Positions 17,457 through 57,753 are shown, numbered from the stretch's first letter. The stretch is 60,000 nt of DNA from Malacoraja senta (GCA_038087875.1 CM075988.1:26600001-26660000), one strand, 5' to 3'. Program-made: numbers and translations. Notes: generated by a model not told the origin, from the letters alone.

Positions 17457-18246
17457 ACATAGATACATAGAAAATAGGTGCAGGAGTAGGCCATTCGGCC
17501 CTTCGAGCCTGCACCGCCATTCAATATGATCATGGCTGATCATCCAACTCAGTATCCCGTACCTGCCTTCTCTCCAAACCCCCTGATCCCCTTAGCCACA
17601 AGGGCCACATCTAACTCCCTCTTAAATATAGCCAATGAACTGGCCTCAACTACCCTCTGTGGCAGAGAGTTCCAGAGATTCACCACTCTCTGTGTGAAAA
17701 ATGTTTTTTCTCATCTCGGTCTTAAAGGATTTCCCCCTTATCCTTAAGCTGTGACCCATTGTCCTGGACTTCCCCAACATCGGGAACAATCTTCCTGCAT
17801 CTAGCCTGTCCAACCCCATAAGAATTTTGTACGTTTCTATAAGATCCCCTCTCAATCTCCTAAATTCTAGCGAGTATAAGCCAAGTCTATCCAGTCTTTC
17901 TTCTTATGAAAGTCCTGACATCCCAGGAATCAGTCTGGTGAACCTTCTCTGCACTCCCTCTATGGCAATAATGTCCTTCCTCAGATTCGGAGACCAAAAC
18001 TGTACGCAATACTCCAGGTGTGGTCTCACCAAGACCCTGTACAACTGCAGTAGAACCTCCCTGCTCCTATACTCAAATCCTCTTGCTATGAAAGCCAACA
18101 TACCATTCGCTTTCTTCACTGCCTGCTGCACCTGCATGCCTACTTTCAATGACTGGTGTACCATGACACCCAGGTCTCGCTGCATCTCCCCATTTCCTAA
18201 TCGGCCACCATTTAGATAATAGTCTGCCTTCCCGTTTTTGCCACCG
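17457..18246 (-). mobile_element. CR1 LINE 3' fragment
   Basis: ORFs RDLGVMVHQSLKVGMQVQQAVKKANGMLAFIARGFEYRSREVLLQLYRVLVRPHLEYCVQFWSP and MRGDLIETYKI; tail ACATAGAAAATAGG. Confidence 0.93.
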
Positions 18247-22137: not shown

Positions 22138-22713
22138 AAGGCCTGTCTCACGAGTCTGCGGTCATTGGCGGCGAAACGGGAAAAATCTGCCGCCATAGAC
22201 CGCGCACTCGTGAGAACGTACAAATCCGAGGCCGTGCGGCGGTGTTCCCAACACCGCACGGTGCTAAAATAAAAATGACAATGTCGAAAACTATATACTC
22301 ACCGCACAACCTCCACCAGTGATGCACGAGTGCGGCATGGCCGCCCGCACGGGCCGCCGCCAGTGTGGCTCGAGCGCCGTGCGTCAAACCTCCACTGCCA
22401 CAGCCTCCGCCAGTGAGGCACGTGTGCGGCACGGCCGCAGGCACAGCCACCGCGCCGCGATCAGGACGGCCGCCGCCACAGCCGCCGCTCGTGAGTCACG
22501 TGCGGTGGGCCGACGTCATAGCAGTCGGCCCGCCCTTTTTTTTACTTACCGCAAGCACGTGGGACCCGCCGTGTTTGAATTACTCGGCCCCCGCGCAGCA
22601 TCCGTGCGGCGCTCCGGTGGATAGGCTCGGCGCTCTTGCCGTTGCCGCGCGGTCCCCGCTACCGGCGACGCCGCGCTTCACCGCCGATGACCGCAAACAG
22701 GTAAGACAGCCTT
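22138..22713. mobile_element. GC-rich MITE, PIF/Harbinger-like, nested in the Academ-like element
   Basis: About 40-bp imperfect TIRs: left AGGCCTGTCTCACGAGTCTGCGGTCATTGGCGGCGAA versus right (reverse complement) AGGCTGTCTTACCTGTTTGCGGTCATCGGCGGTGAA; TAA/TTA flanks. Confidence 0.72.
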
Positions 22714-23400
22714 TACTCTACATTTTTTATTTATCATTTTTATTTAACAGTTCACATCATAACTTTATAAAGATAAATCAATTGAAAAACAAAATGATCA
22801 GCAAGGTGAGCATTACCTTTATTCCTTGGAAACCTTGTTATTGTTTTGATGTAATGAGGAGGCAGCCATGATCCCAGGGTCCTCCCTGCCAAGCGACCAT
22901 AAAACAAAGCGCGGGGTTGGTCAATGTGCGTCCGACCTCAATGTCAAACGTGCATTGATTGGACAATTACTACTCCGAAAATTTGACGTTTTTCTCATCA
23001 TTCTTTAAAAATTGCAGGGTTTTTTCTTGACGAGTTTCAGGTATGATTTATATAATATTTTTACACAATATGTTAAAAATTCAGGTAGTTCTGCGAGTTG
23101 GGTCATGAACCCGACCAAAAAAGCTCCTCGGCCCACAGCCTATCTGTGAAATGTCTCCTACCCATGTTCTCCAGAGATGCTGCCTGACCCGCTGAGTTAC
23201 TCCAGAACGTTGTGTCTGTCTTAAGGATAAAGATGCTGGTTCATGATTAATGTTAATAAATTCGTAACAGACACCGATGGTTGAAAATCTGATACTGAGT
23301 TTGTACAGGGCCAACGCCCAAATAATCTCAATACACCCACACATCTAACCCTCCGTTCCTTTAAAAAGACAGAGTGCTGGAGTCTCAGCGGGTCAGGAGT

Positions 23401-34730: not shown

Positions 34731-35307
34731 ACTTCAATTGTACAGGGCCCTGGTGAGGCCACATCTGGAGTATTGTGTGCAAGTTTTAGGAAGGACATCC
34801 TTGCTATTGAGGCAGTGCAGCCTAGGTTCACGAGGTTACCCCCGGGATGGCGGGAGTCTCATATGAGGAAAGATTGGAAAGACTGGGCTTGTATTCACTG
34901 GAAATTAGAAGGATGAGAGGGCATCTTATAGAAACATATAAAAATATAAAAAAGACTGGACAAGCTAGATGCAGGAAAAATATTCCCAATGTTGGGGGAA
35001 TCCAGAACCAGGGGCCACAGTCTAAGAATAAAGGGGAGCCCATTAAAAACTGAGATGAGAAAAAAAAAATTCACGCAGAGTTGTGAATTTGTGGAATTCT
35101 CTGCCACAGAAAGCAGTGGAGGCAGATTCACTGGATGAATTTAAAAGAGAGATAGAGCTCTAGGGGCTAGCGGAATCAAGGGATATGGGGAGAAGGCAGG
35201 CACGGGTTACTGATTGTGGATGATCGGCCATGATCACAATGAATTGTGGTGCAGGGTCGAAGGGCCGAATGGCCTCCTCCTGCACCTATTTCCTATGTTT
35301 CTATGTT
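34731..35307 (+). mobile_element. CR1 LINE 3' fragment
   Basis: LQLYRALVRPHLEYCVQ, GVSYEERLERLGLYSLEIRRMRGHLIETYK; tail TTCCTATGTTTCTATG. Confidence 0.9.
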
Positions 35308-39703: not shown

Positions 39704-40926
39704 CTGTGCTGCTCGATAGCTTCATTGCCTGCCAGCTCAATGCCACAGACGTTACACCGCTCACTGGCAGATCTATTCTCAGTCTTCATGCCCACAGCCA
39801 GTTCGCCCAACTTGCTGAAAAGCTCCCTCTGGATGAAGCCTTGAGGCATGAGGCCGGCGTACCCGCTGAAGTCCATCGCCATGGAGAGTGCAGGCTGTAC
39901 GTGCAGGGCCGACGAGAGGGAGGCGGGCACCTCCAGCAGCCCGTCAGGCCGGCGGTTGAACTGAATGGGGTACAAGGTGGCGTGTCTCTCCGCCTGCGCA
40001 CCAGCGGTGTTCTCCAACCCCACTTGGGCAACAAAGCCACCCTCAAGAGGCTGATCCCCGGGATTATCCTCACGCACGTAATGCAGCTCACGGGCACTAG
40101 TGATGACGCTGCTACGCGTCGGGGTACCGGGGGCTTCTTTGGACTTATCTGCATCAAGTACCTTCTCTCCCCCTGAAGAACCCATGTCACCCATCTTGGG
40201 GCTTGCACCTTCCTCCACCTGCATCATTTCATGCTTGATCTCAGTTATCATGGGATGTCCACTGCCAGCAGAAAATGCTTCATCTACAGCAGCTTGTTGC
40301 AGAGTTCCCTGAATAATCGACTGCCCGATACTCATTAGACTATCTACAGCAGCTTTGGTGGGGCTCATTGCTGAAAGGCCAAAAGATGTGGAGACTGAAG
40401 GACTCTGGTCTTCCATCGTCCCCTTTGGCATGGCTTGCTTAGCAGGGTAACCAGCCTCTTCACCAGAAACGTGCTTAGTAACCAATATGTTCTTGGTAAA
40501 AATGGTCTTTCCCCCATCCTCCTCTTCAGTGACCGTCATATCTGTATCATGGTCATCTGTCGCCTGAATCGTCTCCAGTATCTTCAGACACTGCTCCTCC
40601 AAGTACTCAATCTCCAATATCTCTGCTGCATACAGCAGATCATCCAAGTCCTCTACTTTGGCTTGCAGTGTGGCAGTGTATGCATATTCCAGGATCTGTT
40701 GGAATGTCTTTGGTGAAAGGAAGTCCAAGGTGTAATGCTGACTGTTGCGTAGAAATAAAATTTCAAACATCTTGCTGGTGCAGGCCAAGACTGTGCGATG
40801 GGCGTGGAACTCCTGGCTGTCCACCAAGATGACCACGTCACACAGCGTCCCCAACAGTCGCATCTGGTTGGCTTTGTGAAGGAGGACCGAGGGATGAGTG
40901 GGATTCTGAAGCTTTACTAACCCCAT
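39704..40926 (-). CDS. ZBTB16: ZBTB16/PLZF first coding exon: BTB/POZ domain, central region and start of zinc finger 1
   Basis: 408-aa ORF MGLVKLQNPTHPSVLLHKANQMRLLGTLCDVVILVDSQEFHAHRTVLACTSKMFEILF...TPTRSSVITSARELHY...FIQRELFSKLGELAVGMKTE...CNVCGIELAGNEAIEQHR closely matches vertebrate PLZF. It ends at a phase-2 donor CACAG|GTGAGC (GT at 39703-39702). The exon's acceptor TTTTGTTCTTGCAG|GTG places the exon start at 41022. Confidence 0.97.
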
Positions 40927-41022
40927 GTTTAATCAAATCCACAGATGTGTTCTGTGCTGGACCAATTCATCAGGCTGTCTGTATGGTTGGTTACACGGTC
41001 TGTTGTTGAAGTCTGGCGTCAC
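40927..41022 (-). other. ZBTB16: 5' UTR part of the ZBTB16 BTB exon, containing a 13-codon uORF (40970-40929)
   Basis: Lies between the acceptor (AG at 41024-41023) and the ATG at 40926. Reads ATG AAT TGG TCC AGC ACA GAA CAC ATC TGT GGA TTT GAT TAA ac ATG. Confidence 0.8.
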
Positions 41023-42433
41023 CTGCAAGAACAAAAATGGGCAAGAATTTTAAGTTGCTTTCTTGTGGAAAAAAAGGTTGGCAGCAACTTCTGCTCTCCA
41101 TCAATCTACCCATCACCCCATCTCCTTACTGATCTGCATATTCCCTATGCCTCAATTATTATGTCTGAAAGACTCAAGTACCACAATATTGTGATGTTGC
41201 ATTGAATCCACCATCTCCCCCAGAACCCATAAATCTTTGGCTCTAACTTACACAACCCACTGCATTTCTCAAAAGCTTCATTCAGCCATTGGCAGTCGGC
41301 TCCGTTTACCCATGGATCCAATTCACTGGAATCCCTTGCCTCCGTTTCTTCTCCTTACTCCTTCGTCTGGACTCCCTGCATCTATTGGGCCAGCTCGACA
41401 TACATCGGCAAGTCCCACAAGCCGGATGCTCGCGCCCACCAATTAGTCAGTCATCATACACCTCGCCGAGCTCACACTGCAATTACGTCCAGTGGAACAG
41501 CATCCTTCTACTTACACCACTGCCTGGTGTTCCCTTACTCTCCCTCTATAATCTACACATGAATATCTCAAGTCTATAATACAGGCTGAGATGGAAAGTG
41601 CATGAATTGCTTTTTACAAAATTGGCCATCACATTCCCTTTTGCTGCAGCTCCAGATATTGTGCAGTAATGTTCTCATTTCCCCTGTAAACCTTGCTCTG
41701 AAGCCCCACTATTGTTTGCTGTGCTCCAGTGTATCACATTAAGTGCTTTAGTCATAAATCAATATTGCCACAAATATAGTACTTAATCCATGGTGACAAA
41801 TGTTTGTGAAGGTTATTTACAGTCGGCTTGTATTCCCAGGTGCCGCGCTATGTAGCACCTTCCATCTCCCTCATTTAATTATCAGCCAATATGATGCCAC
41901 TCCTGATAAACTTTGGCTTCCAAGATTAATTATTTGCAATTTTCAAGGGACAAAGCAAGGTAGTAAATTGATCGCCTAGGTAGCGTACGGTCAAGTTATG
42001 GGAGGGGGGGGGGGGAAGGAGCAGTCATATTATAGGACGTGGTGGACCAGCAGAGCTCTGCATTTCACCCAGTGTGATTGCTACTGGGTATTAACATTAA
42101 AGCAAAAATATTTTTCCATGCAATGAAGTTCCAAATGAAATCCCTCATCTCCGTTATATGATGGGTCTTGACGCCTGCTGCATTGCGCTCCCGACAGCAC
42201 AAATGGTTCAGGGGAAATTTTATATGGGTGCTCAAAATCTATGAACAGCATTGATCGAGTTAAAGGTGCAGACAATATTTCCACTACTGGAGGATTGGTA
42301 ATCACAAGAGATTGAATTAAGATAGTTGGCAATAATGCTCAGGACAAAAACAAGCTAACTTCATTAAAAGGTTGGTTAATTGTTACAGCATGGAACTTAA
42401 TGCCCAGAGAGACATAATTAGAAATAGACACAA

Positions 42434-43050
42434 ATGATTCAACGAATGAGTGGGCTGGCATATGGTGAGCGTTTGACGACACTGGGCCTGTACTCGCTGG
42501 AGTTTAGAAGGTTGAAGGGGGACCTCATTGAAACTTACAGAATAATGAAAGGCATAGAGTGGATGTGGAAAGGATGTTCCCACTGGTGGGAGAGTCTAGG
42601 ACCAGAGGTCATAGCCTCAGAATTAAAAGCAACTCTTTTAGAAAGGCAAGGAGGAATTTCTTTAGTCAGAGGATAATCTGTGGAACTCATTGCCACAGAG
42701 GCCATTAGTGGATATTTTGATACAATACAATTATGATACAATTTATTTGTTGTCATTTGAACCTCATTGAGGTTCAAACGAAATTTGGTTTCTGCAGTCA
42801 TACAAACAAGTAGAAGAACCAAGACACAACACAATTTACACAAACATCCATCACAGCGAATCTCCTCCTCGCTGTGATGTCTATCTCTGCCTTATTTTTA
42901 AGGCCGAGATAGACAAATTCTTGATTAGAACGGGTGTCAAGGTTTTTGGGGAGAAGGCAGGAAAATTGGATTAGGAGGCAGAGATCAGCCATGATTGAAT
43001 GGCGGTGGACTCCATGGGCCGAATGGCCTAATTTTACTCATACAACTTGT
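42434..43050 (+). mobile_element. CR1 3' fragment interrupted by another retroposon tail (about 42721-42880)
   Basis: MSGLAYGERLTTLGLYSLEFRRLKGDLIETYRIMKG; the CR1 tail resumes at about 42893 (TATTTTTAAGGCCGAGATAGAC). Confidence 0.75.
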
Positions 43051-45539
43051 GACATTATTGTACACAAGTAGCTAAGAAAAGGCAGTGAGGTGAGATTGAT
43101 TGTACAGCTGAGTTAGCATAGGACTGTTGGGCCAAATGGCCTCTGAACTACTCTAAACAAAGCAGAAAGTGTAAAACAAACATAAATAAATAGGAGCCTA
43201 AATGGTTAAATATCAACTGCTTCTTTCCATTGACACCTTGACTTTTAGTAATTTGATATGGCTTGGCGCCAATTGCCGTTAAATTAGCTGCTAACATTTG
43301 CTTCGTCAAAGCCAAATGTTCTTGGACAAAACATGTAACTAAGGTCTGTAACCCTTCCAACTCACACTTAACATCCTCGTCACGTGGAATATGCCTTAAG
43401 ATCTGATCCAGTTTGTTTCTATAGGATTTCTGCCTACATTTTCACAGGTCACATTTTGGTGGGTCTTTGTCTTGGGAACCTCAAACCCAGTTACACCATA
43501 GTGGAGCAGTGGAAAGGCAAATTTGCACCCACTGAATATAATAAAGTCACTTTTTATTTCATAAGACAAGGACGGACGCAGCCACCAGCTATACATAGAA
43601 TTACAGTATATTGCAGTGGTACTTGGGCCAAATGGCCTACCTTCCACCCTGACTGATCATTTTCCTTCTTTCATTTAACTAGGCCCCCCCTCAGCCACAT
43701 CGATGCTATTCACAAATGTTCAACATGGCAGCAACTTCAACATTTAACAAGGGTCTGGCTAAGAATTTCTGAAATCCCCAGTAAATTAATTTGCAAATCA
43801 CATACTCAAGACTCATTGCAAACTCCCACAAGTGGAAATATCTTCGACCATGTTCAACATTTTCATAATCTTTTTGAAAGACTTCCATTAGATCATCTTT
43901 CTACCTTTTCTGTTCCAGAGACAAGAGCCCAGCCCTGATGAGACACCTAAAGAGCTTCTAGCATTTAAGGACATAAATCGCTACATTCCACAAACACATT
44001 TAACCCGATTCACAAGCAAAGAGGAAGGCAAGGTCCTGTGAGATTATACTGTGATTGTGTTGCTGAAGGGGTACAAATTACCTCTTCACAAAAATGGACC
44101 AGGTTGGGAAAAGCTCTTATCATAGCAACTCAACCAAATGTATCTGCAGTATTCCTCAACATCCCATCAGGACGGTTAACAGCCAGACTGAACTGTGCGC
44201 TTTCTGGGAATTTCAAATCTTCTGCTTAGTAAATACTAACCAATTGCTATCATTTCCCCTCAAATAGGCACCCAAATTTGCCTTTTAAAAGGATATTGAA
44301 TCCCTTCCATTTTTCACAATTTGCGGAAAGCTGACAACCAAAATTCCTCTTATCCCACCTTCCCTCAAAGCAAAACATCGAGCCTGCGTTCCAGCAGCAG
44401 CTCTGCCTCCAATCATTAGTCATGTGCAACTATACCTCAGAACCATTCCAAATATTTCCCATCTCCATGCTAGGTCTACTCTGCTGAAAGATCTCGGGCA
44501 AAATTCAGATACTTGTGGGTTCAAGACCCATTCCAAAACTTGAGCACTAATCTGGTGTTGTATTGTTAGGAGGTGCTGGTGGGATATAAAGAGAGGACTC
44601 ATCTGCAAAGTGTTCCCAATGTCTTCAACAAGAACCACACGGATCACAATTGTCCAATTTATAATGGAGCACACAAATCATTCTGTTGCTGTCCTGTGAT
44701 CAACATTACTTTGCTTATTAGCAAATTGTAAGTAGTGGCTAAACAACCTAACTTTCATAGGAACAGTATTTCCTGAAAAACACCAGTATTGTGAAGAAAT
44801 AGAACATTTCTGAATTTCAGAAATTAATTCAGAAGTCTTTCAGTAAAGTGAATGTTTTCAAAGCCCTGTCAGAAAGGAACATGTAAATAAACCATGACAC
44901 ATGTCTCATATAAAGAGGTCACCGACTCAAGGCACTGCACTCTTAGTCACAGCTTGTGTAAAATTCATTGTTCATTCACTGCCAAGCAATAACCCGCACT
45001 ACCTTTAAATCTCTCTCCAAAACAATTTGTTGCAAGGCAGTAACACACCTCAAAAGTACAGCTGGTGCAATAAACAGCTTATGGTTTAGAGGCCAATTTG
45101 ATTTTAAAAGCGTCACATTGCACTGCACTGCCAGGCATTCTAGTATCCTGTACAGTAAAAGCCGTTTGGCGTATTGCAATAAACCAATGCCTATAGATTC
45201 CCATCCTCCCGTGCTTGGATAACAGCAATAACACGCAGCAAACATCTTGGGCTATCCTCATTCTGAGCAGCACTTCCCCCCCTCCCCCATCCTCATGAAC
45301 TCATTGCCAAAGCTTTCAACTTCCTGAACATGTACTAGTATCCAGTGCACACAAAGCAACATGGGTGTAATGACCAACAATGTGTAGCAGAGTTCCCACA
45401 CCAGCCTTTCAAGGGCAGTAACAATCCTTCAGCTGTGGGGATGGAGCGAGACTCTCTGGTTAGCTACACATCCATTTTAATAATGTATGTTTTTAACAGA
45501 AACAATGAAAAGCTTCTTGAGAAAAACCAATCAACTCAA

Positions 45540-45910
45540 GGGCATCAAAGTGGCACAGCAGGTAGAACTGCTGCCTCACAACGCCAGAGACCCAGGTTCG
45601 ATCCTGACCTTGGTTGCCATGTGTGGAGTTTACACGTTGTCTCTATGACCATGTGGGTTTCCTCCGGGTGCTCCGGTTTCCTCCCACATCTGAAAAGATG
45701 TGCGTGTTTGTAGGTTAATTGGAATTTGCAAAGTTAAAATTGCCCCTAATTTGTGGGAAGTGGGATAATGTAGAACTAGTGAGAACGGAGTTTGGTTTAA
45801 TTTAGAGATACAGCTCCTTCGACCCACAGAGTCCATTGGGTTATTGATGGTCTGCATGGACTTGGTGGGCCAAAGGGCCTGCTACCATGCTGTGTCTCTA
45901 AAAAATTTAA
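45540..45910 (+). mobile_element. HE1-like V-SINE
   Basis: tRNA head with GGTTCGATCC, V-domain GTGTGGAGTTT...CTCCGGGTGCTCCGGTTTCCTCCCACA, CR1-like tail. Confidence 0.85.
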
Positions 45911-46484
45911 ATCATCAACTCAAGAGTTCTACACCACAATATGAAGTGTAATGACTAGTCGCAACAATATCCATCGTTAGAACAGTCCTTCATTGTAAAG
46001 TAATTTTGGGCAGCACAAGGTCAAGAAATTAATAACCCTTTCTGAACAGAACAGTTGAAAATAACACAAAAATCTTGCCTGTGACCAAAATAAATCCCCC
46101 CCCCTCCTGATCACCACAAGGTCCCTCAACTTTACAGCGAGTTATTGTCATATTCTTACCCACACTAATCAATAGTTCCTAGGTGTATTATGTTGCAATG
46201 TAGATGCATTATGTGGCCTTTCTCACAAATTGCACCACATGGCAGCATTACTTCAATTATCATTTCATTGACACTTTGTTCATCACTTATATCTGCTGGC
46301 AGAAAGAGTGAACACCTCACTATTCATCCCCAAAAAGCTCTGGAGAGTCCAGTCTCATCCCCACAGAAACACACTGTTACTGGACAATTACATTTTGCAA
46401 TCAGCTTGAAATATTGGGTGCAAAAAAAAAGTCTAGTTAATAGCACAGAAATGAACGTTTTAATAAGGTTTACTTTAACAGCAG

Positions 46485-46645
46485 GTACACAAAAATGCTG
46501 GAGAAACTCAGCGGGTGCAGAGGGGTTCGGCCCGAAACGTTGCCTATTTCCTTCGCTCCATAGATGCTGCTGCTGCACCTGCTGAGTTTCTCCAGCATTT
46601 GTGTACCTTCGATTTTCCAGCATCTGCAGTTCCTTCTTAAACAAA
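46485..46645. mobile_element. Penelope-derived palindromic insertion with 15-bp TSD
   Basis: TTACTTTAACAGCAG duplicated at 46470-46484 and 46646-46660; inverted arms GTACACAAAAATGCTGGAGAAACTCAG / CTGAGTTTCTCCAGCATTTGTGTAC. Confidence 0.85.
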
Positions 46646-48606
46646 TTACTTTAACAGCAGTTGGATGGAATGGCCTGCTTCAACACAGCAGTGAAACAGA
46701 AAGTAAATATTTGATAAAGAAAATGAAGAATAAACGTTCGATAAAGGCAATAATACTGATCAGCAAAAGTAACCATTTCAATATTATGATATACTGTAAG
46801 GTGTTTAAAATGTGCTTTTCCCTTTGGCATTTAGTACTGGGATTAAAAACAAAGTGCACTTTAAATGATATTTTATTGTAATGTTGCAAGATTTTTTTTG
46901 ATTGACTGCCCTCCATTCATTGCCTCAAAATTATCCGTTAGGTTAAAATGCCTCTGGAGTATTGAAGAAATTGCAACTATTTTTCCAGGTCCAACTAAGT
47001 TAAATCTAGAAAACATTGTCCTGGAGATAAAAGGGACAATCTTACTTGTCCATCAGGTGACGTTATTGAAAGGCCAGCGCGGCTCGGGAAGGTGGCAGAG
47101 AGACAGTAGGGGGTGGGAGAGAGAGGAGGAGACACTGGACAGGAAGACAAGAATAATCTGTATGGAATTTTTTTTTTAAAAGGAACATTTGGAATAAACG
47201 AATCCCCCAAAATTGCAGAATATAGAAACATAGAAAATAGGTGCAGGAGTAGGCCATTCGGCATATGGTCTTCCCGCGGGCCCTGGGCAAGTTTGATAAG
47301 TGGAATTGTTTCTTCGCAGGTGAGACCAATGAAGGTGGGAGTCGACCCACAGAAACTCACACCTGGTTAAACTGAAGAACTCAACAAACCGGCGACAGAC
47401 AGATAACCCGCGCGGCCAGTCCCACCCGGAAGCGAACATTATGTGCCATTTACTTTCAAAGGTCCCCAATGCAAAGGGAAGGTCAGAGCTGATGTATTTG
47501 GGAACAGTTATTATACACACGGCTTGTGGGGGGGGGGGGGCAAGAAATAACTCATTGGATGTCGCGCCTCCACAATTAGACATATTTAATCAAACATCAT
47601 CAATATCATTCATGGCCCTTCCCTTCGCTACCCGTTCACCACGGACTGTTTACTTGTGTACAGTTTGACCACAGTCTGTGTATGAGACGCAACTGCAGAT
47701 GCTGGTTTATATACAAAGTGCTGGAGTAACTCAGCGGGTCACTCAGGCGGGAATGTTTCAGGTCGAGGCCCTTCTTCACACTACAGTCTACCTGGCAATT
47801 CCCGTTGCCTGAATCAGAGATTACAGCAGCAACGCCGGCCAGAGATGCTGCCTAACCCGCTGAGTTGCTCCAGCATTCTGTGTCCATCTGGAGGTCGCGG
47901 GTTCGGTCCCCGCCCGGGGCCGGGACAGGTCGGGGATGGAGGGGCCTGGACAGGTCGGGGATGGAGGGGCCGGTGTGGGGCTCTGGGGCACAGACCAGGC
48001 GTCCTGTCCACTCTGCCGGACAAAGCCAAACACCTCGCGGTATTTGTACGTACAGATACAGGCCGTTATCTTACCCGGCGCGGTGGGTATTTGATCCGCG
48101 AGTCACCGACACTACAGATACTCCACGCCCGCCCGCCCGGGTGGGTTGGTGGGGAAAGGCGCTACACAAATGCAACATCTCTCCTCCATTTAACTTACTG
48201 GCAACCATTCGTTTAACCCTCGGGCTGCTGGAGTCGGCGCCCCCGGGTTCACTTCATTAACGGACAATTCCTCGCCAATACACACGCCACAGACAAGCCA
48301 AGATGGAACTCAGTGTCCGGCCGCTGCACAATGACCATGCCCGAGATTACATCTTTATACTCGCAGATCTCACTCTCTTCGGGGGGGGGGGGGTATCGGT
48401 CCCAACCCGAGCGGTTCCTCAGACGGACAAAGGCACGTGTATGTGTTTTAACCCTAAATAAAGGGGCGGCTTCAAGCGCCGGCGAGAGAGAGAGGGAGGG
48501 GGGGGACAGTTCCAGAGACACCGGCCTCGAAATCAACTTCAGAACTAATGGTGTCCGGGAACTGTGTGTGGAGGGTTATACTGGCCCGAATGTACCCGGT
48601 GCCAGC

Positions 48607-48890
48607 CGCCTCTCCCCATCCCCTCTCTCTCCCCCCATCCCATCTCTCTCTCCATCCCCTTTCTCTCTCTCTATCCCCTTTCTCTCTCCCCCCCATCCCC
48701 CTCTCTCCCACCCCCCCCTCTCTCTCTCTCTCTCCCCATCCCCTCTCTCTATCCCCTTTCTCTCTCCATCCCCTCTCCCCCCCTTCTCTCTCTTTCCCTC
48801 TCCCCCCATCCTCTCTCTCTCTCCTCCCCCCCCTCCAATCCCCTCTCTCCCCCCTCCAACCCCCTCTCTCCCCCACCCAATCCCCCCGCT
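48607..48890. repeat. C/T-rich polypyrimidine low-complexity tract
   Basis: Near-continuous CCCCTCTCTCTC / CCATCCCC units. Confidence 0.9.
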
Positions 48891-49560
48891 TCCATTACCC
48901 ACCCTAGCGCCGCTGTTCAGTAAATCACAACAGCCCGTGGAACCGCACAGTTACATTCACAATATACAACTGGATTTCTTCACGTAAACACATCTAAATT
49001 AACTGGTGAACACGTTGATGTGGGGGAACGGTTGCTGCACTTTCTGCACGCCAGCATGCGGCGCTTTAACAAGTCGGTCGGCAGCGAGAGGTTTAAAAGG
49101 CCAGCGGTGTGGCTTCGCAGCTCGGATCCCAACAACGACCCTCCTCTCCTCTTCTCCTTCATCCCCTCTCCATCCTTCCATCCTTCCTCCTTCCCCCTTC
49201 CCCTATCCCCCCCGCCGGCACAGGCAGCCCGCTGGATGCAAGACACACACAGAATGTCCCCGCCATCATAACCCACCACACACACAGACACAGACACAGA
49301 CACACACACACACAGACACCCCGACCCAAGCACTAGAGCGGGTACATGTCCACACATAACCGGGGTTAAAGCCCGGGCGGCCGCTAACAAAGCCTCCCTC
49401 ACACGTTAGTCGTGTTTGCACTCTGGTCACGGCTCGCATCTCCCCACCACCCAGTGTCGTGGACACTAATGCTCTCCAGCCAGACAAAGAATCACACAAA
49501 CAGGGCAACGCACAACGACAATGGTCACACGGGCACCGGCAGCAACATTTCTCCGCATAC

Positions 49561-49680
49561 CTTCGTTTTCCTCTCCGGGTAGAAATAGGTTTGGCCTTTT
49601 TATATAAATACAATCGTCTTTTCATTCAGCACAGCCCCAGTGTGGAGGTCGGTGGTGGAGGATGCGGGCTGTGATTAGCG

Positions 49681-49684
<4 letters not shown>
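49561..49684 (-). other. ZBTB16: candidate non-coding first exon of ZBTB16 (5' end uncertain)
   Basis: Minus-strand donor-like CGAAG|GTATGC at 49561/49560, inside the CpG-rich region about 8.5 kb upstream of the BTB exon acceptor. Inference only. Confidence 0.4.
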
Positions 49685-49718
<34 letters not shown>

Positions 49719-49800
49719 ACACTCACACACACACTCTGTCTCTCTCCTTCTCTCCCTCTCTCTCTCTCTCTCTCTCACACTCACTCTCTCACACACACTC

Positions 49801-49834
<34 letters not shown>

Positions 49835-49856
49835 ACACTCACTCTCTCACACACAC

Positions 49857-49928
<72 letters not shown>

Positions 49929-49931
49929 CCT

Positions 49932-50012
<81 letters not shown>

Positions 50013-50107
50013 CCTCTCTCTCTCTCTCTCTCACACACTCTCTCTCTCTCTCACACAGACACACACTCTGTCTCTCTCTGTCTCTCTCTCTCTCACACAC
50101 ACACACA

Positions 50108-50154
<47 letters not shown>

Positions 50155-50205
50155 TCTGTCTCTCTCTGTCTCTCTCCCCCTCTCTCCCCCTCTCTCTCTC
50201 ACTCA
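49684..50205. repeat. compound (CT)n/(CA)n microsatellite, about 520 bp
   Basis: Alternating blocks of TC and AC dinucleotide repeats. Confidence 0.95.
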
Positions 50206-51625
50206 CATCATGTAGCAAATCAAATGGTCCCGTACGTCATCCGCCCGCGCCTCACACTCACTCAAGTCCGCAGCCCCGGCGCGCTGTGACACTCGCAAGT
50301 CCGCCATCTTTCATCCTGGCGCAGCTCCCCCTCTGATGCCCCTTGTATCTAATGCCTTACCCGAGTGAGGAGATTGTGTGTGAGACATCAAATGCAATGG
50401 ACCCCCTCTAACCCGGGTTACCCCCTGCACGGTTTACTCATGGGTTAGCACTCCTCTTTGCACAGGGTCTACAATTAAGGGATTTGAATTCTACGTTGAT
50501 AGAAACATAGAAAATAGGTGCAGGAGTAGGCCATTCGGCCCTTCGAGCCTGCACCGCCATTCAATATGATCATGGCTGATCATCCAACTCAGTATCCCGT
50601 ACCTGCCTTCTCTCCATATTTGCATTCAGCTGAAAGCGCGAGTCCTGGCCATTCATATACTACAGAACAGAGCAGCAAACTGGAGCCATGATGAGACCCC
50701 GGGCTGCGAGCATCTTTATTTGCAGCTTTATTTAATCCTGATGCCCGGTGGATGCGTTTACTCCGTTGTTTGCAAGTACACTTGCAGGGGGTGCCTGGAA
50801 GCGAGCCTGGAGTTTGGGGTTTCTCGCTGCAGCCATCACCCTGTACTTTGTTGGGTCGCCCCCGTCATGTCTAACCCGGTGGTGACATTGCCCAGTGCGG
50901 GGGGGTGGAGCAGTGTAAGGTACCTCGCTACCTGCAACTGTTATCTCATTGGCACGAACCTGGCTCAAAGATTGAAAGAAATCTAGTTCCCTTGTAGTTT
51001 CCCAACGCCAGCAGATGATTGTATTTAGAATACATATTATATTTCATCAAATATATTTAAAATACCGACGGGGTTATTATCATTCATCTTTTACGAGACA
51101 TTTATATCATTCTAATGATCTCATTACAACGAGGTCAATGTCTTAACTGTAAATGATAATTTAAAAAAACTAGATGCTGGAAATCTGCAATAAAGAATAA
51201 CTCGTGGAGCGACGGCGACTGTGGAATGAGAAACACGTCAGATTGTAGTCCTGCATTTTCTGTTTTTATTTCCACACGTTAACTGTTGGGAGCAGCCGTT
51301 GTCAGCTATTCCATTTATCATGTTGTAAATGGAATAACTCCAAAAGAACTAAAAATATCAACTCGAAGTCACTCTTAAGTAACAATTGCTTGGTCACTAA
51401 AATAAATTACTCGAGTCTTCTGCAATATTCCATTTGGCATTGAATTGTTACACTCTGTACTGAATACGAAGCGAACAGCGCTTGTAACAAACACGTAACG
51501 AGTCATGATAACTTCACCCACAGAATATGTTACAGACTGCGGGTCACTATAACATCATTTATTTTAAAAGGAGAAGCAAATAATGATTTATGCAAGAACG
51601 TCTGATAACTTTACTGTGGTCAGTG

Positions 51626-51754
51626 GGTGGAGATTGCAACCTTCACGTGGTCCACCTTGTTTAGACTAATGCAATCAACCCGACCTGCACAACAAGATCA
51701 AATTGAACAAGTTGACCTACAAGTCTAGGCTGTGCGCGCCATACGCAAAAAGTA
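51626..51754 (+). mobile_element. short (129 bp) non-autonomous retroposon with 11-bp TSD; 3' end resembles Ingi/Vingi LINEs
   Basis: TGTGGTCAGTG duplicated at 51615-51625 and 51755-51765; ends GTTGACCTACAAGTCTAG...CGCCATACGCAAAAAG. Family call is from recollection. Confidence 0.55.
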
Positions 51755-51861
51755 TGTGGTCAGTGAATGTACACTGGGGAGCAGAAAACAACATGCTCAG
51801 AGGGCACAGTTAATAGAACCCACTGCAATCAAGCCTTCAGCCCATTTCTCATTGCCCCCTT

Positions 51862-52243
51862 TATTGAAACATATAAGATTATTAAGGGGTTGGACACGCT
51901 AGAGGCAGGAAACATGTTCCGATGATGGGGGAGTCCAGAACCAGGGGCCACAGTTTAAGAATAAGGGGGTAAGCCATTTAGAACGGAGACGAGGAAACAA
52001 TTTTTCACACAGAGAGTGGTGAGTCTGTGGAATTCTCTGCCTCACAGGGCGGTGGAGGCAGGTCCTCTGGATACTTTCAAGAAAGAGCTAGATAGGGCTC
52101 TTAAAAATAGCGGATTCAGGGGATATGGGGAGAAGGCAGGAACGGGGTACTGATTGGGGATAATCAGCCATGATCACATTGAATGGCGGTGCTGGCTCGA
52201 AGGGCAGGCATATTGTCCTGCACCTATTGTCTATTGTCTATTC
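51862..52243 (+). mobile_element. CR1 3' fragment
   Basis: ATTGAAACATATAAGATT (IETYKI), GAGTCCAGAACCAGGGGCCAC (ESRTRGH), tail CTATTGTCTATTGTCTATT. Confidence 0.85.
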
Positions 52244-52387
52244 ATTGTCTGAATATCCCAGACAGCTACCGGCCTCGTCAAAATGGTCATTTCACATCCA
52301 ATAGGCCAGTAGTCACCTGTCAGACAATCCCACACATACTGTTCCCAATATGTAAAAAACACACAATGTACTTTGACTCTTAGGGAG

Positions 52388-52587
52388 NNNNNNNNNNNNN
52401 NNNNNNNNNNNNNNNNNNNNNNNNNNNNNNNNNNNNNNNNNNNNNNNNNNNNNNNNNNNNNNNNNNNNNNNNNNNNNNNNNNNNNNNNNNNNNNNNNNNN
52501 NNNNNNNNNNNNNNNNNNNNNNNNNNNNNNNNNNNNNNNNNNNNNNNNNNNNNNNNNNNNNNNNNNNNNNNNNNNNNNNNNNNNNNN
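52388..52587. other. assembly gap (200 N)
   Basis: Run of exactly 200 N, typical of a fixed-size scaffolding join. Confidence 0.99.
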
Positions 52588-53037
52588 ATTTCCCGTTTGG
52601 ATTGTGTCCTGCAGTCACCCTCTCCACTTGCTCTGGTGAAAAGAAGCCTCTTTAGCCCTTGCTCAATATCCCAAGTTTGCAAATGGGTCCCAGTCCTACT
52701 GACCACTATTGTGTAAATGTTCCGATGCTTTGTCCAAAGATTAAAATAAAAGTAATAGTGTGTTTGTTTGCCAGAGCACGAGTTGAGAAATCAGTGGAGC
52801 CTGCTTTAGATTACTTCCAAACTGCCAAGCTTTAAGAAAAACAACCAAATGTGAATGCAAGCTGATGCCAGAATCATCTGCTTTCCTTTAGCGGCAGATC
52901 TAATTTCACCGTTATGCCCCTTGATGCTGCCCTCTGATTGTCAGACTCTGTTGGTGAAGAACAGGGGTCTGACAATGAAAGCTACAGTCATTGTGGGAAT
53001 GTAGATATAACAGCTGAAGTAAGCACAGCAAACTCTT

Positions 53038-54460
53038 GGGCACAGCGGTGCAGTGGGTAGAGCTGCTACCTCGCAGCGCTAGAGACCCGGGTTTGAAACA
53101 TAGAAACATAGAAAATAGGTGCAGGAGGAGGCCATTCGGCCCTTCTAGCCAGCACCGCCATTCATTGTGATCATGGCTGATTGTCCCCAATCAATAACCC
53201 GTGCCTGCCTTCTCCCCATATCCCTTGACTCCACTAGCCCCTAGAGCTCTATCTAACTCTCTCTTAAATCCATCCAGTGATTTGGCCTCCACTGCCCTCT
53301 GTGGCAGGGAATTGCACAAATTCACAACTCTCTGGGTGAAAAAGTTTCTTCTCACCTCAGTCTTAAATGGCCTCCCCTTTATTCTTTGGCCCCTGGTTCT
53401 GGACTCGCCCAACATTGGGAACTAGCTTGTCCAGTTCTTTTCTATAAGAAAACTCCTCATCCTTCTAAACTACAGTGAATACAAGCCTAGTCTTTTCAAT
53501 CTTTCCTCATATGACAGTCCCACCATCCCAGGGATCAATCTCGTGAACCTACGCTGCACTGCCTCAATCACAAGGATGTCCTTCCTCAAATTAGACCAAA
53601 ACTGTACACAATACTCCAGATATGGTCTTACCAGAGCCATATACAACTGCAGAAGAACCTCTTTACTCCTATACTGAAATCCTCTTGTTATGAAGGCCAA
53701 CATTCCATTAGCTTTCTTCACTGCCTGCTGTACCTGAACGCCAACTTTCAGTGACCAGTGTACAAGGACACCCAGGTCTCGCTGCACCTCCCCCTTATCT
53801 AACCTAACCCCATTGAGATAATAATCTGCCCCCTTGTTTTTGCCACCAAAGTGGATAACCTCACATTTATCTATATTATACTGCATCTGCCACGCAGCTG
53901 CCCACTCACTCAACCTGACCAGGTCACCCTGCAACCTCCTAACATCCTCTTCACAGTTCACACTGCCACCCAGCTTTGTGTCATCCGCAAACTTGCTAGT
54001 GTTGCTCCTAATTCCCTCTTCCAAATCATTAATATATATGGTAAACTGTTGCGGCCCCAACACCGAGCCTTGCGGCACTCCACTCGCCACTGCCTGCCAT
54101 TCTGAAAAGGACCCGTTCACTCCTACTCTTTGCTTCCTGTCTGCCAACCAATTTTCTATCCACGTCAACACCCTACCCCCAATACCATGTGCTCTAATTT
54201 TAGTCACCAGGGTGCCTGATCTGGGTGTTGTGCGTGTGGAGTTTGCACGTTCTCCCTGTGACCACGTGGGATTCCGCCGGGTCTCCGGTTTCCTTCCATG
54301 TCCCAAAGATGTGTATATTTGTAGGTTGATCTGTAAACTTGTCCCCGTGTGTGTAGGGAGTGGATGAGAAAGTGGGATAATAATCACATATGGACGGGTG
54401 ATCATTGGGACTTGACGGGTTGAAATACCTGTTTCCATGCTGTACATATAAATTAAACTA
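53038..54460 (+). mobile_element. HE1-like V-SINE split by an antisense CR1 insertion (head about 53038-53096, body about 54210-54460)
   Basis: tRNA head GGGCACAGCGGTGCAGTGGGTAGAGC...CCGGGTTTGA stops at the CR1 tail; the V-domain GTGTGGAGTTTGCACGTTCTCCC resumes after 54210. Confidence 0.8.
53097..54209 (-). mobile_element. CR1 LINE fragment with reverse transcriptase core
   Basis: [49 protein letters not shown] in ORF 53470-54447; tail AAACATAGAAACATAG. Confidence 0.95.
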
Positions 54461-54879
54461 ACAGTAATTAGATAATAATAATCATTTTACCCCAATTATT
54501 GCAAAGGATAATTGTTCAGTTCCAGAACCCCAGAGCTGTAGAAGGCCATGGTGTGGTAGAGCACAGCATGGAAACTGCCCTTCGGCCCACCATGTTGGTG
54601 CTGTCCTGTAATGCATAACTCCCTTGGTGTTAGTGCCATTGTCCGGGTTGTATCACTGCCTCGGTCTGCGTCCATCCTGGAGTGGGACTTGAACTCTCAA
54701 TCTTCAGTCATAGGCTTACAGCGTGGAAACAAGCCCTTCAGCCCTACTTGTCCACGCTGATCAACATGTCCCAGCAACACTAGTCCCACCTGCCTGCGTT
54801 TGGCCATATCCCTCTAAACCTGTCCTATCCATGTACCTGTTTAAATGTTTCTTAAAAGTTGTGATAGTCGATGTTGATC

Positions 54880-55270
54880 CAATCCAATCCAACTTTATTG
54901 GTTAAGTACTTTAAAACAACCAATGTTGGCCAAAGTGCTGTACAGAAGACAACATAACAGAACAGAACATAACAGCTCACATGAGGCGCAGAAATTACAT
55001 ATGAAACACAACAATAAATTAGAAGACATAAAACATGAGTAAAAATAATAGCCACGCAATAAAAGCAATCAAAATAAGAAATTAGAAATTAAATCAAGTA
55101 AATAAAGTCGACATCTTACTGGGTATCAAAGGCCACGGAGAAGAGATGGGTTTTAAGAAGTGATTTAAAAACAGACAGAGAAGAGAGAGGCCTGTTTAAT
55201 GTGGAGAGGCAGATCGTTCCATAATTTGGGTGGCGACACAGCAAAGGCACGGTCCCCTCTGAGCTTCAAA
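54880..55270 (-). mobile_element. L2-clade LINE 3' end
   Basis: KLRGDRAFAVSPPKLWNDLPLHIKQA; tail TGTACAGCACTTTGG...TAAAGTACTT..AATAAAGTTGGATTGGATTG. Confidence 0.75.
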
Positions 55271-56078
55271 TAAAAAAGTAAAAAAGGTAGAATAAAAAAG
55301 ACACGACACACTATTAGAGATTCAACATGAACATCCCCCCCCCACAGCAGAGTCGACACTCTCCACTGTGAGGGAAAGGCACCAAAATGTCCAGTCCTCC
55401 TCCTAGTCCACCCGAGGTCAGGGCCAGTTTGAGGGCTCCGCAGCCGTTGGTGGTGGGCTTGCTACTGGCTGAGGCCTGGCTGTCTCTGGCACAGGTGAAA
55501 TTGTACACTTACTAACTAAGGCAAAGAGGAAACGCACCAATCTTTTGTTTTGCCAATCATTTTCTATTTAACCGTCAAGTTTGAGGGTGTATTTAATCTG
55601 TAACGAAAATAAAAGTCTGTCAGCCCTTTTATCTGATTCCACACCTCCAATGTTAAACACACAAACACCTTTTAAGTTTTCAATGTTAGATAAGTGATTT
55701 TTTGTAATCTTTGTTTTTTGATCCTGTGCAGTTTGTTTGTGTGTGGTGACTATTTTCTATCAGTCTGCACCACTAATACTTCTCTCTGGTTTTCACTGAG
55801 AGCATACGTTTGCTGATGAGATCGACAGTTTCCTGTTTTGCTCATTATGATCGCAGCCGAGCTTGGCAACAAAGCTTGATACATTTAACAATTCTTTTGA
55901 TATTCATATCTGTTAACGCCACACCTTGTAGTGTTTGTAAAATTGTGCACTGTTTAATTTTAAATTCCCCTCCTTGTCTTTCACTCCTCTGGATAGAGGT
56001 CACACTCTATTTAACAATTTATACCTGATCGTTCAACGTGATTTGATCTATTTTGTCCCGTTCCCAAGTGGTAGAAAG

Positions 56079-56340
56079 TTTAGCTTAGAGATAGTGCATG
56101 TAAGCGGATGCTTTGGCCCGTCGAGTCGACACTCACCATCCGTCACCTGTTCACATTAGTTCTCTACACACTCCCTACACACGCGCAGCAATTAACCTAC
56201 AAACCCGCACATCTTTGGATGTGAGAGGAATCCCACACGGTGACGGGGAGAACTTGCAAACTCCGTACAGTTGGCACCCGAGGTCAGGATCGAACCCAAG
56301 TCTCTGGCGTTGTGAGGCAGCTGCTCCACTGTGCTGCCCC
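56079..56340 (-). mobile_element. HE1-like V-SINE
   Basis: Reverse complement: GGGGCAGCACAGTGGAGCAGC...GGGTTCGATCCTGACCTCGGGTG...GGAGTTTGCAAGTTCTCCCCGT. Confidence 0.8.
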
Positions 56341-56557
56341 GGTTGTCCTGCTGGGATGAGGGGCTGCTCATCTGTGAGAGCACGGTGGTAACTCTGAGGC
56401 TAATGGGCCATGTGTCTATGCTTGCTCTCTGTAGATGCCTGGTGGAAGCACTGGCTGAGTTTACTTATCTCCTTTGGTACATCCTTAATCACAGCCAATC
56501 TCAACTCAGCTGGAGTCTGGGGGCATATCATTTTATTTTACATCACCCAACTGTACT

Positions 56558-57165
56558 TAGAAACATAGAAAATAGGTGCAGGAGTAGGCCATTCGGCCCT
56601 TCGAGCCAACACTGCCATTCAATATGATCATGGCTGATCATCCAAAATCAGTACCCCGTTCCTGCTTTTTCCCCATATCCTTTATTCCGTTAGCCCCAAG
56701 AGCTAAATCTAACTCTCTCGTGAACACATCACGAATGATTGAATGATCTGGAAGATGGAATTGAAGGCTTTGTAGCCAAGTTTGTGGATGAAATGAAGAT
56801 GGGTGGAGGGGCAGGTAGTGGAGATAAAGCAGGGAGTCTGCTGAAGGACTTGGACAGGTTGGGTCAGTGGGCAAACAGTGGCAGATGGAATACAGTGTAG
56901 CAAAGTGTACGGTCATACACTTTGGTCAATGCAATAAAGGCATAGATTATTTTCTAAATGGAGAGAAGATTCAGAAATCTGAGGTGTAAGGCACTAGGGA
57001 GTGCTGGTGCAGGATTCCCACAAGGTTCATTTGCAGGTTGAGTCAGCAGTAAGGAAGGCAAATGCAATGTCAGCATTTATTTTGAGCGGACTAGAATGTA
57101 AAGGAATAGCATTATCAGGTGATGGCGAGGCCACGTTTGGATTATTATGTGGTTTTGTGCCCCGT
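56558..57165. mobile_element. adjacent CR1 fragments (minus-strand 3' tail about 56558-56720; plus-strand RT fragment about 56745-57165)
   Basis: AGAAACATAGAAAATAGGTGCAGG tail; GCCAAGTTTGTGGATG (AKF.DD-like), VRKANAMSAFI. Confidence 0.75.
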
Positions 57166-57666
57166 ATCATAGAGGGGAACGTACAAACTCTTGCAGAAGA
57201 CGGCACCTGTGGTTAAGATTGAGCCTGGGTCTGTGGCACGGTAAGGCAGCAACTCTATCGCTGTGCGGATCAGTGGTCAACGTGGACTTGGTGGGCCGAA
57301 GGGCCTGTATTCATGGCGTATCTCTCAACTAAATCCTGGGATACCCTCCCTGTACCACTTGGCCAGAGGACATTGGGGCGGTTTACAAAGGTGATTCACC
57401 AACACCGTGAGGGAAATCGGGGACAGGTCGTAACTGGCAGCATTTACATCCAACAAATAAAAATAAACTCTGCAACTTGATGTGAATGCTTCTGATGTTC
57501 GTGTGTATACAGCCAGGCAGCTTTTTATAAGGTTTAAATCGTTGTCCTGCACTTGAAGCAGGTTCCTCGAGATTTCCTGAAGCGATGCCCTGTGAGTGGG
57601 GATTGAGATCCAGGTGGACTTTTGCTAACTTCCCTACCCTAAACTCTTGTTTCTTTTCTATTACAG

Positions 57667-57753
57667 CAGGTGCAAAGGCCTTTGTGTGTGACCAATGTGG
57701 AGCACAGTTCTCAAAGGAAGACGCCCTGGAGAGTCACCGACAGACACACACCG
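57667..57753 (+). CDS. ZBTB16: ZBTB16 internal zinc-finger exon (equivalent to human exon 4, third C2H2 finger), on the opposite strand to the BTB exon
   Basis: Encodes (A)GAKAFVCDQCGAQFSKEDALESHRQTHT(G); human PLZF has AGAKAFVCDQCGAQFSKEDALETHRQTHTG. Branch-like CTAAC near 57625, polypyrimidine tract, TTACAG acceptor, ACCG|GTACGT donor; 87 nt, phase 1-1. Confidence 0.93.

What the first reader, a model, noticed from the sequence alone, without database searches (positions are those of the whole stretch)
39704..57753. ZBTB16 exons on opposite strands across a 200-N gap: flipped contig, real inversion, or trans-splicing
Seen: the BTB exon and promoter are on the minus strand, while an intact 87-nt exon-4 equivalent with good splice signals is on the plus strand, upstream of the promoter. 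The only gap in the window lies between them, and exon 3 (KLHSGMKTYGCELCGKRF...) was not found. Established: vertebrate ZBTB16 is colinear with a very long intron after the BTB exon, whereas the insect BTB genes mod(mdg4) and lola use trans-splicing, mod(mdg4) with exons on both strands. Inference: most likely the left contig is inverted in the scaffold, which would break the gene model. A true inversion with trans-splicing, or a second ZBTB16 copy, is much less likely but would be remarkable.
Basis: partly seen in the sequence, partly recalled or inferred. Interest (0 to 1): 0.75.

Follow-up and report, generated by a model that had tools for sequence, protein, structure and literature searches.

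The report
Flipped contig splits ray ZBTB16 gene
Two exons of the developmental gene ZBTB16 lie on opposite DNA strands on either side of an assembly gap in this ray-like genome, most likely because one contig was placed backwards during scaffolding, so this is likely an error to fix rather than new biology.

Summary
Observation confirmed. The intact BTB exon is on minus (41022-39704). The 87-nt zinc-finger exon (exon 4) is on plus (57667-57753). The window's only gap, 200 N at 52388-52587, lies between them. Exons 3 and 5-7 are absent from the window. One flip of the left contig restores normal exon order. Independent contigs show the left contig's last 2 kb carries consensus errors: six indels shared by two samples, none on the right flank. 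A relative's contig likely runs about 1,157 nt past the right gap edge without matching the left tip. No listed contig bridges the gap, but most joint rows were hidden. Base skew changes sign between the sides, as expected if each is old sense-strand intron. Ten named shark and ray species have full-length ZBTB16 models. Direct exon 2-to-4 joining is out of frame. No hallmark of mod(mdg4)-type trans-splicing was met. Verdict: scaffolding mis-orientation, about 0.9; obligatory trans-splicing, about 0.015.

The parts
39704..41022 (-). ZBTB16 first coding exon (exon 2 equivalent): 96-nt 5' UTR, ATG at 40926, BTB domain, linker and start of first zinc finger; ends in phase 2
   Evidence: 395/407 identical to P0003
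1..39703 (-). intron after the BTB exon, at least 39.7 kb; exon 3 not in window; sense-strand T+G excess
47500..51000 (-). GC/CpG-rich block with TC/CA microsatellites; inferred promoter and exon-1 region (exon 1 not mapped)
   Evidence: inference from position
50400..52387 (.). tip of the left contig: one-base indels against independent contigs (6 in 50591-51648, 1 at 50453); CR1 3' fragment at 51861-52241
   Evidence: tables 4 and 8
52388..52587 (.). 200-N scaffold gap, the inferred site of the orientation error
52588..57666 (+). start of the right contig, inferred 3' part of intron 3; 52588-53090 identical to X1 contig and conserved in organisms B and D
   Evidence: table 8
57667..57753 (+). 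ZBTB16 exon 4 equivalent, one C2H2 finger, phase 1-1, tandem acceptor giving 87 or 84 nt

Best explanation
This is an ordinary single-copy ZBTB16 (PLZF) gene of a ray-like fish whose left contig was likely placed in the wrong orientation at the 200-N scaffold gap. Shown: both exons, their strands, the gap and the error-rich left tip. Inferred: the contig ending at 52387 holds upstream DNA, promoter, BTB exon, the long intron and probably exon 3. Its true right-hand neighbour is upstream intergenic DNA, and its far end (left of position 1) would join the intron-3 sequence at 52588. In the animal the gene would be cis-spliced exon 1 to 7 on one strand into the usual 657/658-aa BTB zinc-finger protein.
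For: (1) The strand switch must fall in the 7.3 kb between the promoter block and exon 4, and the only gap does. Chance is 0.15-3.6% for gap spacings of 5 Mb to 200 kb; a published skate assembly has 2,269 gaps in 2,700.5 Mb (PMC11358690, passages). (2) One flip restores exon order (geometry). (3) X1 record 2 (50591-51648) has 0 substitutions but 6 gaps, and X2, another sample, also has 6 gaps and 0 substitutions over 50696-51648. X1 record 8 right of the gap has 0 differences in 503 nt. X1 holds all 153 sampled words of exon 2; P of no indel there at the tip rate is 0.0005. So the left contig ends in thin, unpolished sequence. (4) X1's contig runs 54 nt left of 52588, and X4 record 32 (1,637 nt, 480 aligned) likely about 1,157 nt, with none of it laid on 52290-52469. 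(5) Repeat-masked keto skew on + is -0.068 (95% CI -0.081 to -0.053) in the left intron and +0.055 (0.005 to 0.090) right of the gap. (6) Full-length or near full-length models from 10 named shark and ray species (10 of the 15 rows listed, of 52 members). In 51 of 57 fetched proteins with both anchors, the BTB exon end and exon 4 are 36-37 residues apart, and none is closer. (7) Mis-oriented contigs are a known error: 21, 55 and 115 inversions among 5,483 simulated contigs for three Hi-C scaffolders (PMC9848053 section 2.2), more common for short contigs (PMC6719893 passages).
Against: Nothing shows the corrected junction directly. Exon 3 and the far end of the left contig were not seen (no genome). 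In one search, 711 joint rows and most loose ends were hidden, so a low-depth bridge among them is not excluded. The direction of the X4 overhang rests on my reading of record coordinates for minus-strand pieces, and a long true gap in the present orientation would also give an unmatched overhang. Skew before exon 4 alone is +0.038 with a CI spanning zero, and the cumulative minimum is broad, lowest at 55445, not at the gap. The right-flank error contrast alone is weak (P 0.058). Real rearrangements also tend to break assemblies, so point 1 is not fully independent. No named skate model was among the rows listed, and exon coordinates of relatives were not seen.
Confidence: 0.9

Rival explanations
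1. A different assembly error: the right contig is a misplaced piece or retained alternate haplotype of the same gene, while the left contig continues through exons 3-7 on minus.
For: Produces the same picture in this window; haplotypic duplications and mis-joins are routinely corrected in such assemblies (PMC11358690 passage: 119 joins, one duplication).
Against: Needs both a wrong place and a wrong orientation. X1 record 8 matches the right flank with 0 differences, and its depth alone accounts for bins 52560-52649 and 52920-53009, so no second allele is seen there; contigs drop variants, so this is weak.
Confidence: 0.05
2. A real, recent inversion in this animal or species breaks one allele or the gene, with the breakpoint in the gap or within 53-57.6 kb.
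For: CR1 fragments flank the gap in inverted orientation (51919-52241 vs 53100-53418); skew cannot tell a recent inversion from a flip.
Against: Those fragments are only 78.6% alike and similar ones occur several times in the window. Both exons look intact: the 12 differences from P0003 all lie in residues 141-309, none in BTB. Loss of the gene causes skeletal defects in mice (PMC3398472 passage).
Confidence: 0.025
3. A fixed inversion with obligatory trans-splicing as in mod(mdg4): the 5' exons and exons 4-7 are transcribed from opposite strands and joined as RNA.
For: Exons on opposite strands as assembled; the head-to-head layout would let the CpG-rich block drive both transcripts (inference); mod(mdg4) does this in insects (PMC4387717 passages).
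Against: The two strands are not on contiguous DNA. Only one constitutive exon is seen, not an array of alternative 3' exons. No CpG island in 52.6-57.6 kb. Direct exon 2-to-4 joining hits a stop within about 8 codons, so exon 3 is still needed. Relatives have ordinary full-length models.
Confidence: 0.015
4. A second ZBTB16 gene copy starts beyond the gap on plus.
For: None specific; the geometry allows it.
Against: The right contig has no BTB exon between 52588 and exon 4. Exon 4 is identical in protein to the single ZBTB16-A of relatives. One main contig per run covers the right flank in X1, X4 and X13.
Confidence: 0.01

Closest known systems
Vertebrate ZBTB16/PLZF (ZBTB16-A of elasmobranchs, e.g. 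XP_051895709.1 Pristis pectinata, XP_062894213.1 Mobula hypostoma)
   Same: BTB exon 85-87% identical to these, 97% to unnamed P0003; exon 4 peptide identical; same 657/658-aa tandem-acceptor pair as Mobula X1/X2. Human and mouse genes have seven exons (PMC3398472).
   Different: As assembled, exon 4 is on the opposite strand and upstream of the promoter; inferred to be an assembly error.
Mis-oriented contig in long-range (Hi-C or map) scaffolding
   Same: Strand switch at a round-sized gap, degraded contig tip, order restored by one flip; error type quantified in PMC9848053 and PMC6719893. A 200-N spacer as an arbitrary join is described in PMC6454739.
   Different: The scaffolding method of this assembly is unknown and no contact map was seen.
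Drosophila mod(mdg4) and lola trans-spliced BTB loci
   Same: BTB-coding 5' exon with a zinc-finger-type 3' exon on the other strand, as assembled.
   Different: mod(mdg4) has at least 31 isoforms from alternative 3' exons on both strands, with their own promoters and a U1-pairing intron motif; here one constitutive exon lies beyond a gap.

Membership tests
ZBTB16/PLZF orthologue | N-terminal BTB domain in one large coding exon | tested here: met
   PF00651, E 1e-25; 1,223-nt coding exon
ZBTB16/PLZF orthologue | best matches are named ZBTB16 | tested here: met
ZBTB16/PLZF orthologue | nine C2H2 fingers on exons 2-7, colinear | not testable with these tools
   only exons 2 and 4 in the window; no genome held
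mod(mdg4)/lola-type trans-spliced locus | exons on opposite strands of contiguous genomic DNA | tested here: inconclusive
   a 200-N gap separates them; no bridge among listed contigs, 711 joint rows hidden
mod(mdg4)/lola-type trans-spliced locus | array of alternative 3' exons | tested here: not met
   one constitutive ZBTB16 exon in 7.4 kb right of the gap; sequence beyond 60000 not seen
mod(mdg4)/lola-type trans-spliced locus | own promoter for the 3' exons | tested here: inconclusive
   no CpG island in 52.6-57.6 kb; divergent use of the 47.5-51 kb block not testable without RNA
mod(mdg4)/lola-type trans-spliced locus | [quoted passage not shown] | tested here: inconclusive
   0 hits for four recalled donor-consensus words in the first 2 kb after exon 2; the true motif and the relevant intron (after exon 3) were not available
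mod(mdg4)/lola-type trans-spliced locus | mRNA joining the two strands in this species | not testable with these tools
   no RNA holder listed
scaffolding mis-orientation | strand switch at a fixed-size gap, repaired by one flip | tested here: met
   geometry; position of the switch bounded to 50340-57667 only
scaffolding mis-orientation | contig end of reduced quality at the gap | tested here: met
   6 indels, 0 substitutions against X1 and X2
scaffolding mis-orientation | Hi-C or long reads favour the flipped orientation | not testable with these tools
   only short contigs of runs were laid

The most novel reading that the evidence does not exclude
A fixed inversion has set ZBTB16 exons 4-7 head-to-head with their own promoter, and this fish builds PLZF mRNA by obligatory trans-splicing of two divergent transcripts from one CpG-island promoter: a vertebrate counterpart of mod(mdg4).
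Probability: 0.015. Interest if true: 0.9.

Novelty: not a real feature. Interest (0 to 1): 0.08.

Why it matters
As an artefact it matters to curators. The flip would cut the ZBTB16 model to a BTB-only or missing gene and could be misread as gene loss or a lineage-specific inversion in comparative work on skates and rays. It is a clean example of exon order flagging an orientation error that a contact map may not resolve. If the 1.5% case were true, it would be an obligatorily trans-spliced conserved vertebrate transcription factor, directly testable by PCR and long-read RNA.

Tried and rejected
No genome is held for the window, so exons 3 and 5-7 could not be sought on the scaffold. No RNA holder was listed for exon 2; this is no evidence on expression. 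About 52290-52368 has next to no cover in any of the four runs laid; the small X1 depth in bins 52290-52469 fits one 18-letter match; a hole proves nothing. A scan of metagenome contigs with a 24-base word from the right flank found 0 loci. The 408-aa read-through product of exon 2 is not in the protein collection. Earlier findings of this scan: nothing by place, sequence or words; one unrelated E. coli note. Cumulative skew could not place the switch at the gap. In-place inversion of exon 4 alone was considered because Hypanus isoform X3 skips it in frame (P0130), and rejected because exon 4 lies upstream of the promoter, not inside intron 3. Flipping the right contig alone was rejected on geometry. 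Literature: 'ZBTB16' + 'trans-splicing' gave 7 papers and 'ZBTB16' + 'shark' + 'synteny' gave 2; by listing none concerns this locus (listings only, library limited to open papers).

Full report
Observation. The window has one N run, 52388-52587, of exactly 200 bases. On minus, an exon runs from 41022 to 39704 with canonical acceptor and donor. From ATG 40926 it reads 407 codons without a stop and holds a BTB domain. It is 395/407 identical to an unnamed 658-aa protein, P0003, whose cluster contains records named ZBTB16-A from sharks and rays. Identity is 87% to Pristis, 85% to Mobula and Hypanus, and 81-83% to sharks, so the animal is inferred to be a batoid, likely a skate. On plus, 57667-57753 encodes the exon-4 finger, 29/29 identical to P0003. 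Its tandem acceptor gives 87 or 84 nt, matching the 658/657-aa isoform pair of Mobula. Exon 3 and exons 5-7 gave no hit above noise. The promoter is inferred from a GC/CpG-rich block at about 47500-51000; exon 1 was not mapped.

Geometry and frame. The BTB exon ends in phase 2 and exon 4 starts in phase 1, so a direct join is out of frame and stops within about 8 codons. Exon 3 is therefore required. Of 110 fetched proteins of 440 aa or more, 57 carry both anchors; 51 have them 36-37 residues apart, 6 have 52-60, none fewer. Reversing the left contig puts upstream DNA, promoter, BTB exon and intron in front of the intron-3 sequence at 52588, the normal order. Reversing the right contig alone would leave exons 4-7 upstream of exon 1. 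So one flip of the left contig is the simplest repair.

Independent sequence at the gap. No genome is held. Of 24 runs listed, X1 and X2 (two samples of one organism) hold 1.00 and 0.97 of exon-2 words; X1 may be the source of the assembly. I laid 4 of the 24 (X1, X2, X4, X13) on 50400-53090 at 85% likeness. Left of the gap, X1 record 2 covers 50591-51648 with 0 substitutions and 6 gaps, and X2 record 17 also has 0 and 6; the two insertions shown in table 4 (50712, 50762) are the same in both. These are best read as consensus errors in the window. Exon 2, held word for word by X1, would have P 0.0005 of being clean at that rate. Right of the gap, X1 record 8 has no difference in 503 nt (P 0.058 at the tip rate, weak alone). 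So the left contig ends in thin sequence. Right-flank contigs go on past 52588: 54 letters in X1, and by my reading 64 in X13 and about 1,157 in X4 (record 32, 1,637 nt, letters 1-480 aligned, minus strand). The reading assumes that minus-strand records count on their own strand. The other reading would have a different species' contig start exactly on this assembly's gap edge, which is unlikely but not excluded. X4 depth is zero at 52290-52469, so that overhang does not run colinearly into the left tip; but the tip is uncovered in all four runs and a long true gap would look the same. No bridge appears among the 15 joints shown; 711 were hidden and the tool says some were not counted. The depths of X4 record 25 and X13 record 9 (4.31, 22.5) recur at 50448-50453, which suggests relatives link 50.4 kb to 50.95-51.69 kb in order, with no breakpoint there.

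Base skew. With repeats, exons and the promoter block masked, (T+G-A-C)/N on plus is -0.068 in the left intron (CI -0.081 to -0.053), -0.066 in intron 1, -0.030 upstream of the promoter (CI spans zero) and +0.055 right of the gap (0.005 to 0.090). From recalled knowledge, long-transcribed vertebrate introns carry T+G excess on the sense strand, so each side looks like old intron of its own exon's strand. The part before exon 4 alone is +0.038 with a CI spanning zero, and the cumulative minimum is flat over 52-56 kb, lowest at 55445. Skew does not locate the switch and cannot separate a flip from a recent real inversion.

Base rates. A gap falls by chance in the 7.3-kb interval with probability 0.15-3.6% for spacings of 5 Mb to 200 kb. 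A published skate assembly reports 2,269 gaps in 2,700.5 Mb and 119 corrected joins (PMC11358690, passages; used only as a rate). Three Hi-C scaffolders mis-oriented 21, 55 and 115 of 5,483 simulated contigs (PMC9848053, section 2.2 and passages), and such errors rise with short contigs (PMC6719893, passages). A 200-N spacer is described as an arbitrary join in PMC6454739 (passage). Caveat: real breakpoints also favour repeats where assemblies break.

Relatives. Ten of the 15 cluster rows listed (40 read, 52 members) are genome-annotation records from ten named shark and ray species, 629-741 aa; four rows are unrelated 49-aa proteins and one is P0003. Such models are built on colinear exons (established practice; I did not see their coordinates). 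No named skate record was listed. Unnamed contigs of 2,638 and 1,971 nt encode exons 2-3-4 in order at 97% identity (P0003, P0137); this shows the normal mRNA in close kin but does not tell cis from trans splicing.

Comparison with trans-spliced BTB genes. In mod(mdg4), alternative 3' exons on both strands give at least 31 isoforms, aided by a U1-pairing intron motif also found in lola (PMC4387717, passages), and the 3' exons have their own promoters (PMC6237743, abstract). Here there is one constitutive exon, no CpG island before it, and no contiguous DNA between the strands. A review of vertebrate trans-splicing stresses artefacts in such claims (PMC4824033, passages). Human and mouse ZBTB16 have seven exons and the mouse knockout has skeletal defects (PMC3398472, passages). 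Listings for 'ZBTB16' + 'trans-splicing' (7 papers) and 'ZBTB16' + 'shark' + 'synteny' (2) showed nothing on this locus (listings only). No supplements were read; none is needed for these claims.

Verdict. Mis-oriented left contig 0.90; misplaced or haplotype right contig 0.05; recent real inversion 0.025; obligatory trans-splicing 0.015; second copy 0.01. The corrected junction itself was not seen. Interest 0.08.

Noticed in passing
window 22138-22714: CpG-rich element of about 577 bp with 41-nt imperfect terminal inverted repeats (78%) and no Pfam hit in four overlapping frames: likely a non-autonomous DNA transposon inside the intron.
   Followed up: partly
window 57665-57669: Tandem acceptor before exon 4 gives 87- or 84-nt exons, matching 658/657-aa and 672/671-aa isoform pairs in Mobula and Pristiophorus.
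   Followed up: yes
P0130 (Hypanus sabinus isoform X3): 629-aa model skips exon 4 in frame, removing one zinc finger.
   Followed up: no
window 50500-50950: Appears to be skipped by contigs of organisms B and D, so likely an insertion in this species just upstream of the promoter block.
   Followed up: no
window 53030-54452: A 1.1-kb LINE 3' fragment with a reverse transcriptase remnant (PF00078) sits inside what looks like a SINE; related fragments at 3457-4568, 17456-18245, 34732-35307 and 51861-52241.
   Followed up: partly
window 48610-48885 and 49684-50200: Long pyrimidine-rich microsatellite blocks in the inferred promoter region, 2-4 kb from the contig end; may relate to the coverage drop.
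   Followed up: no
P0123, P0124, P0127, P0133: Four unrelated 49-aa metagenome proteins are filed in the ZBTB16 cluster: a clustering error in the collection.
   Followed up: no
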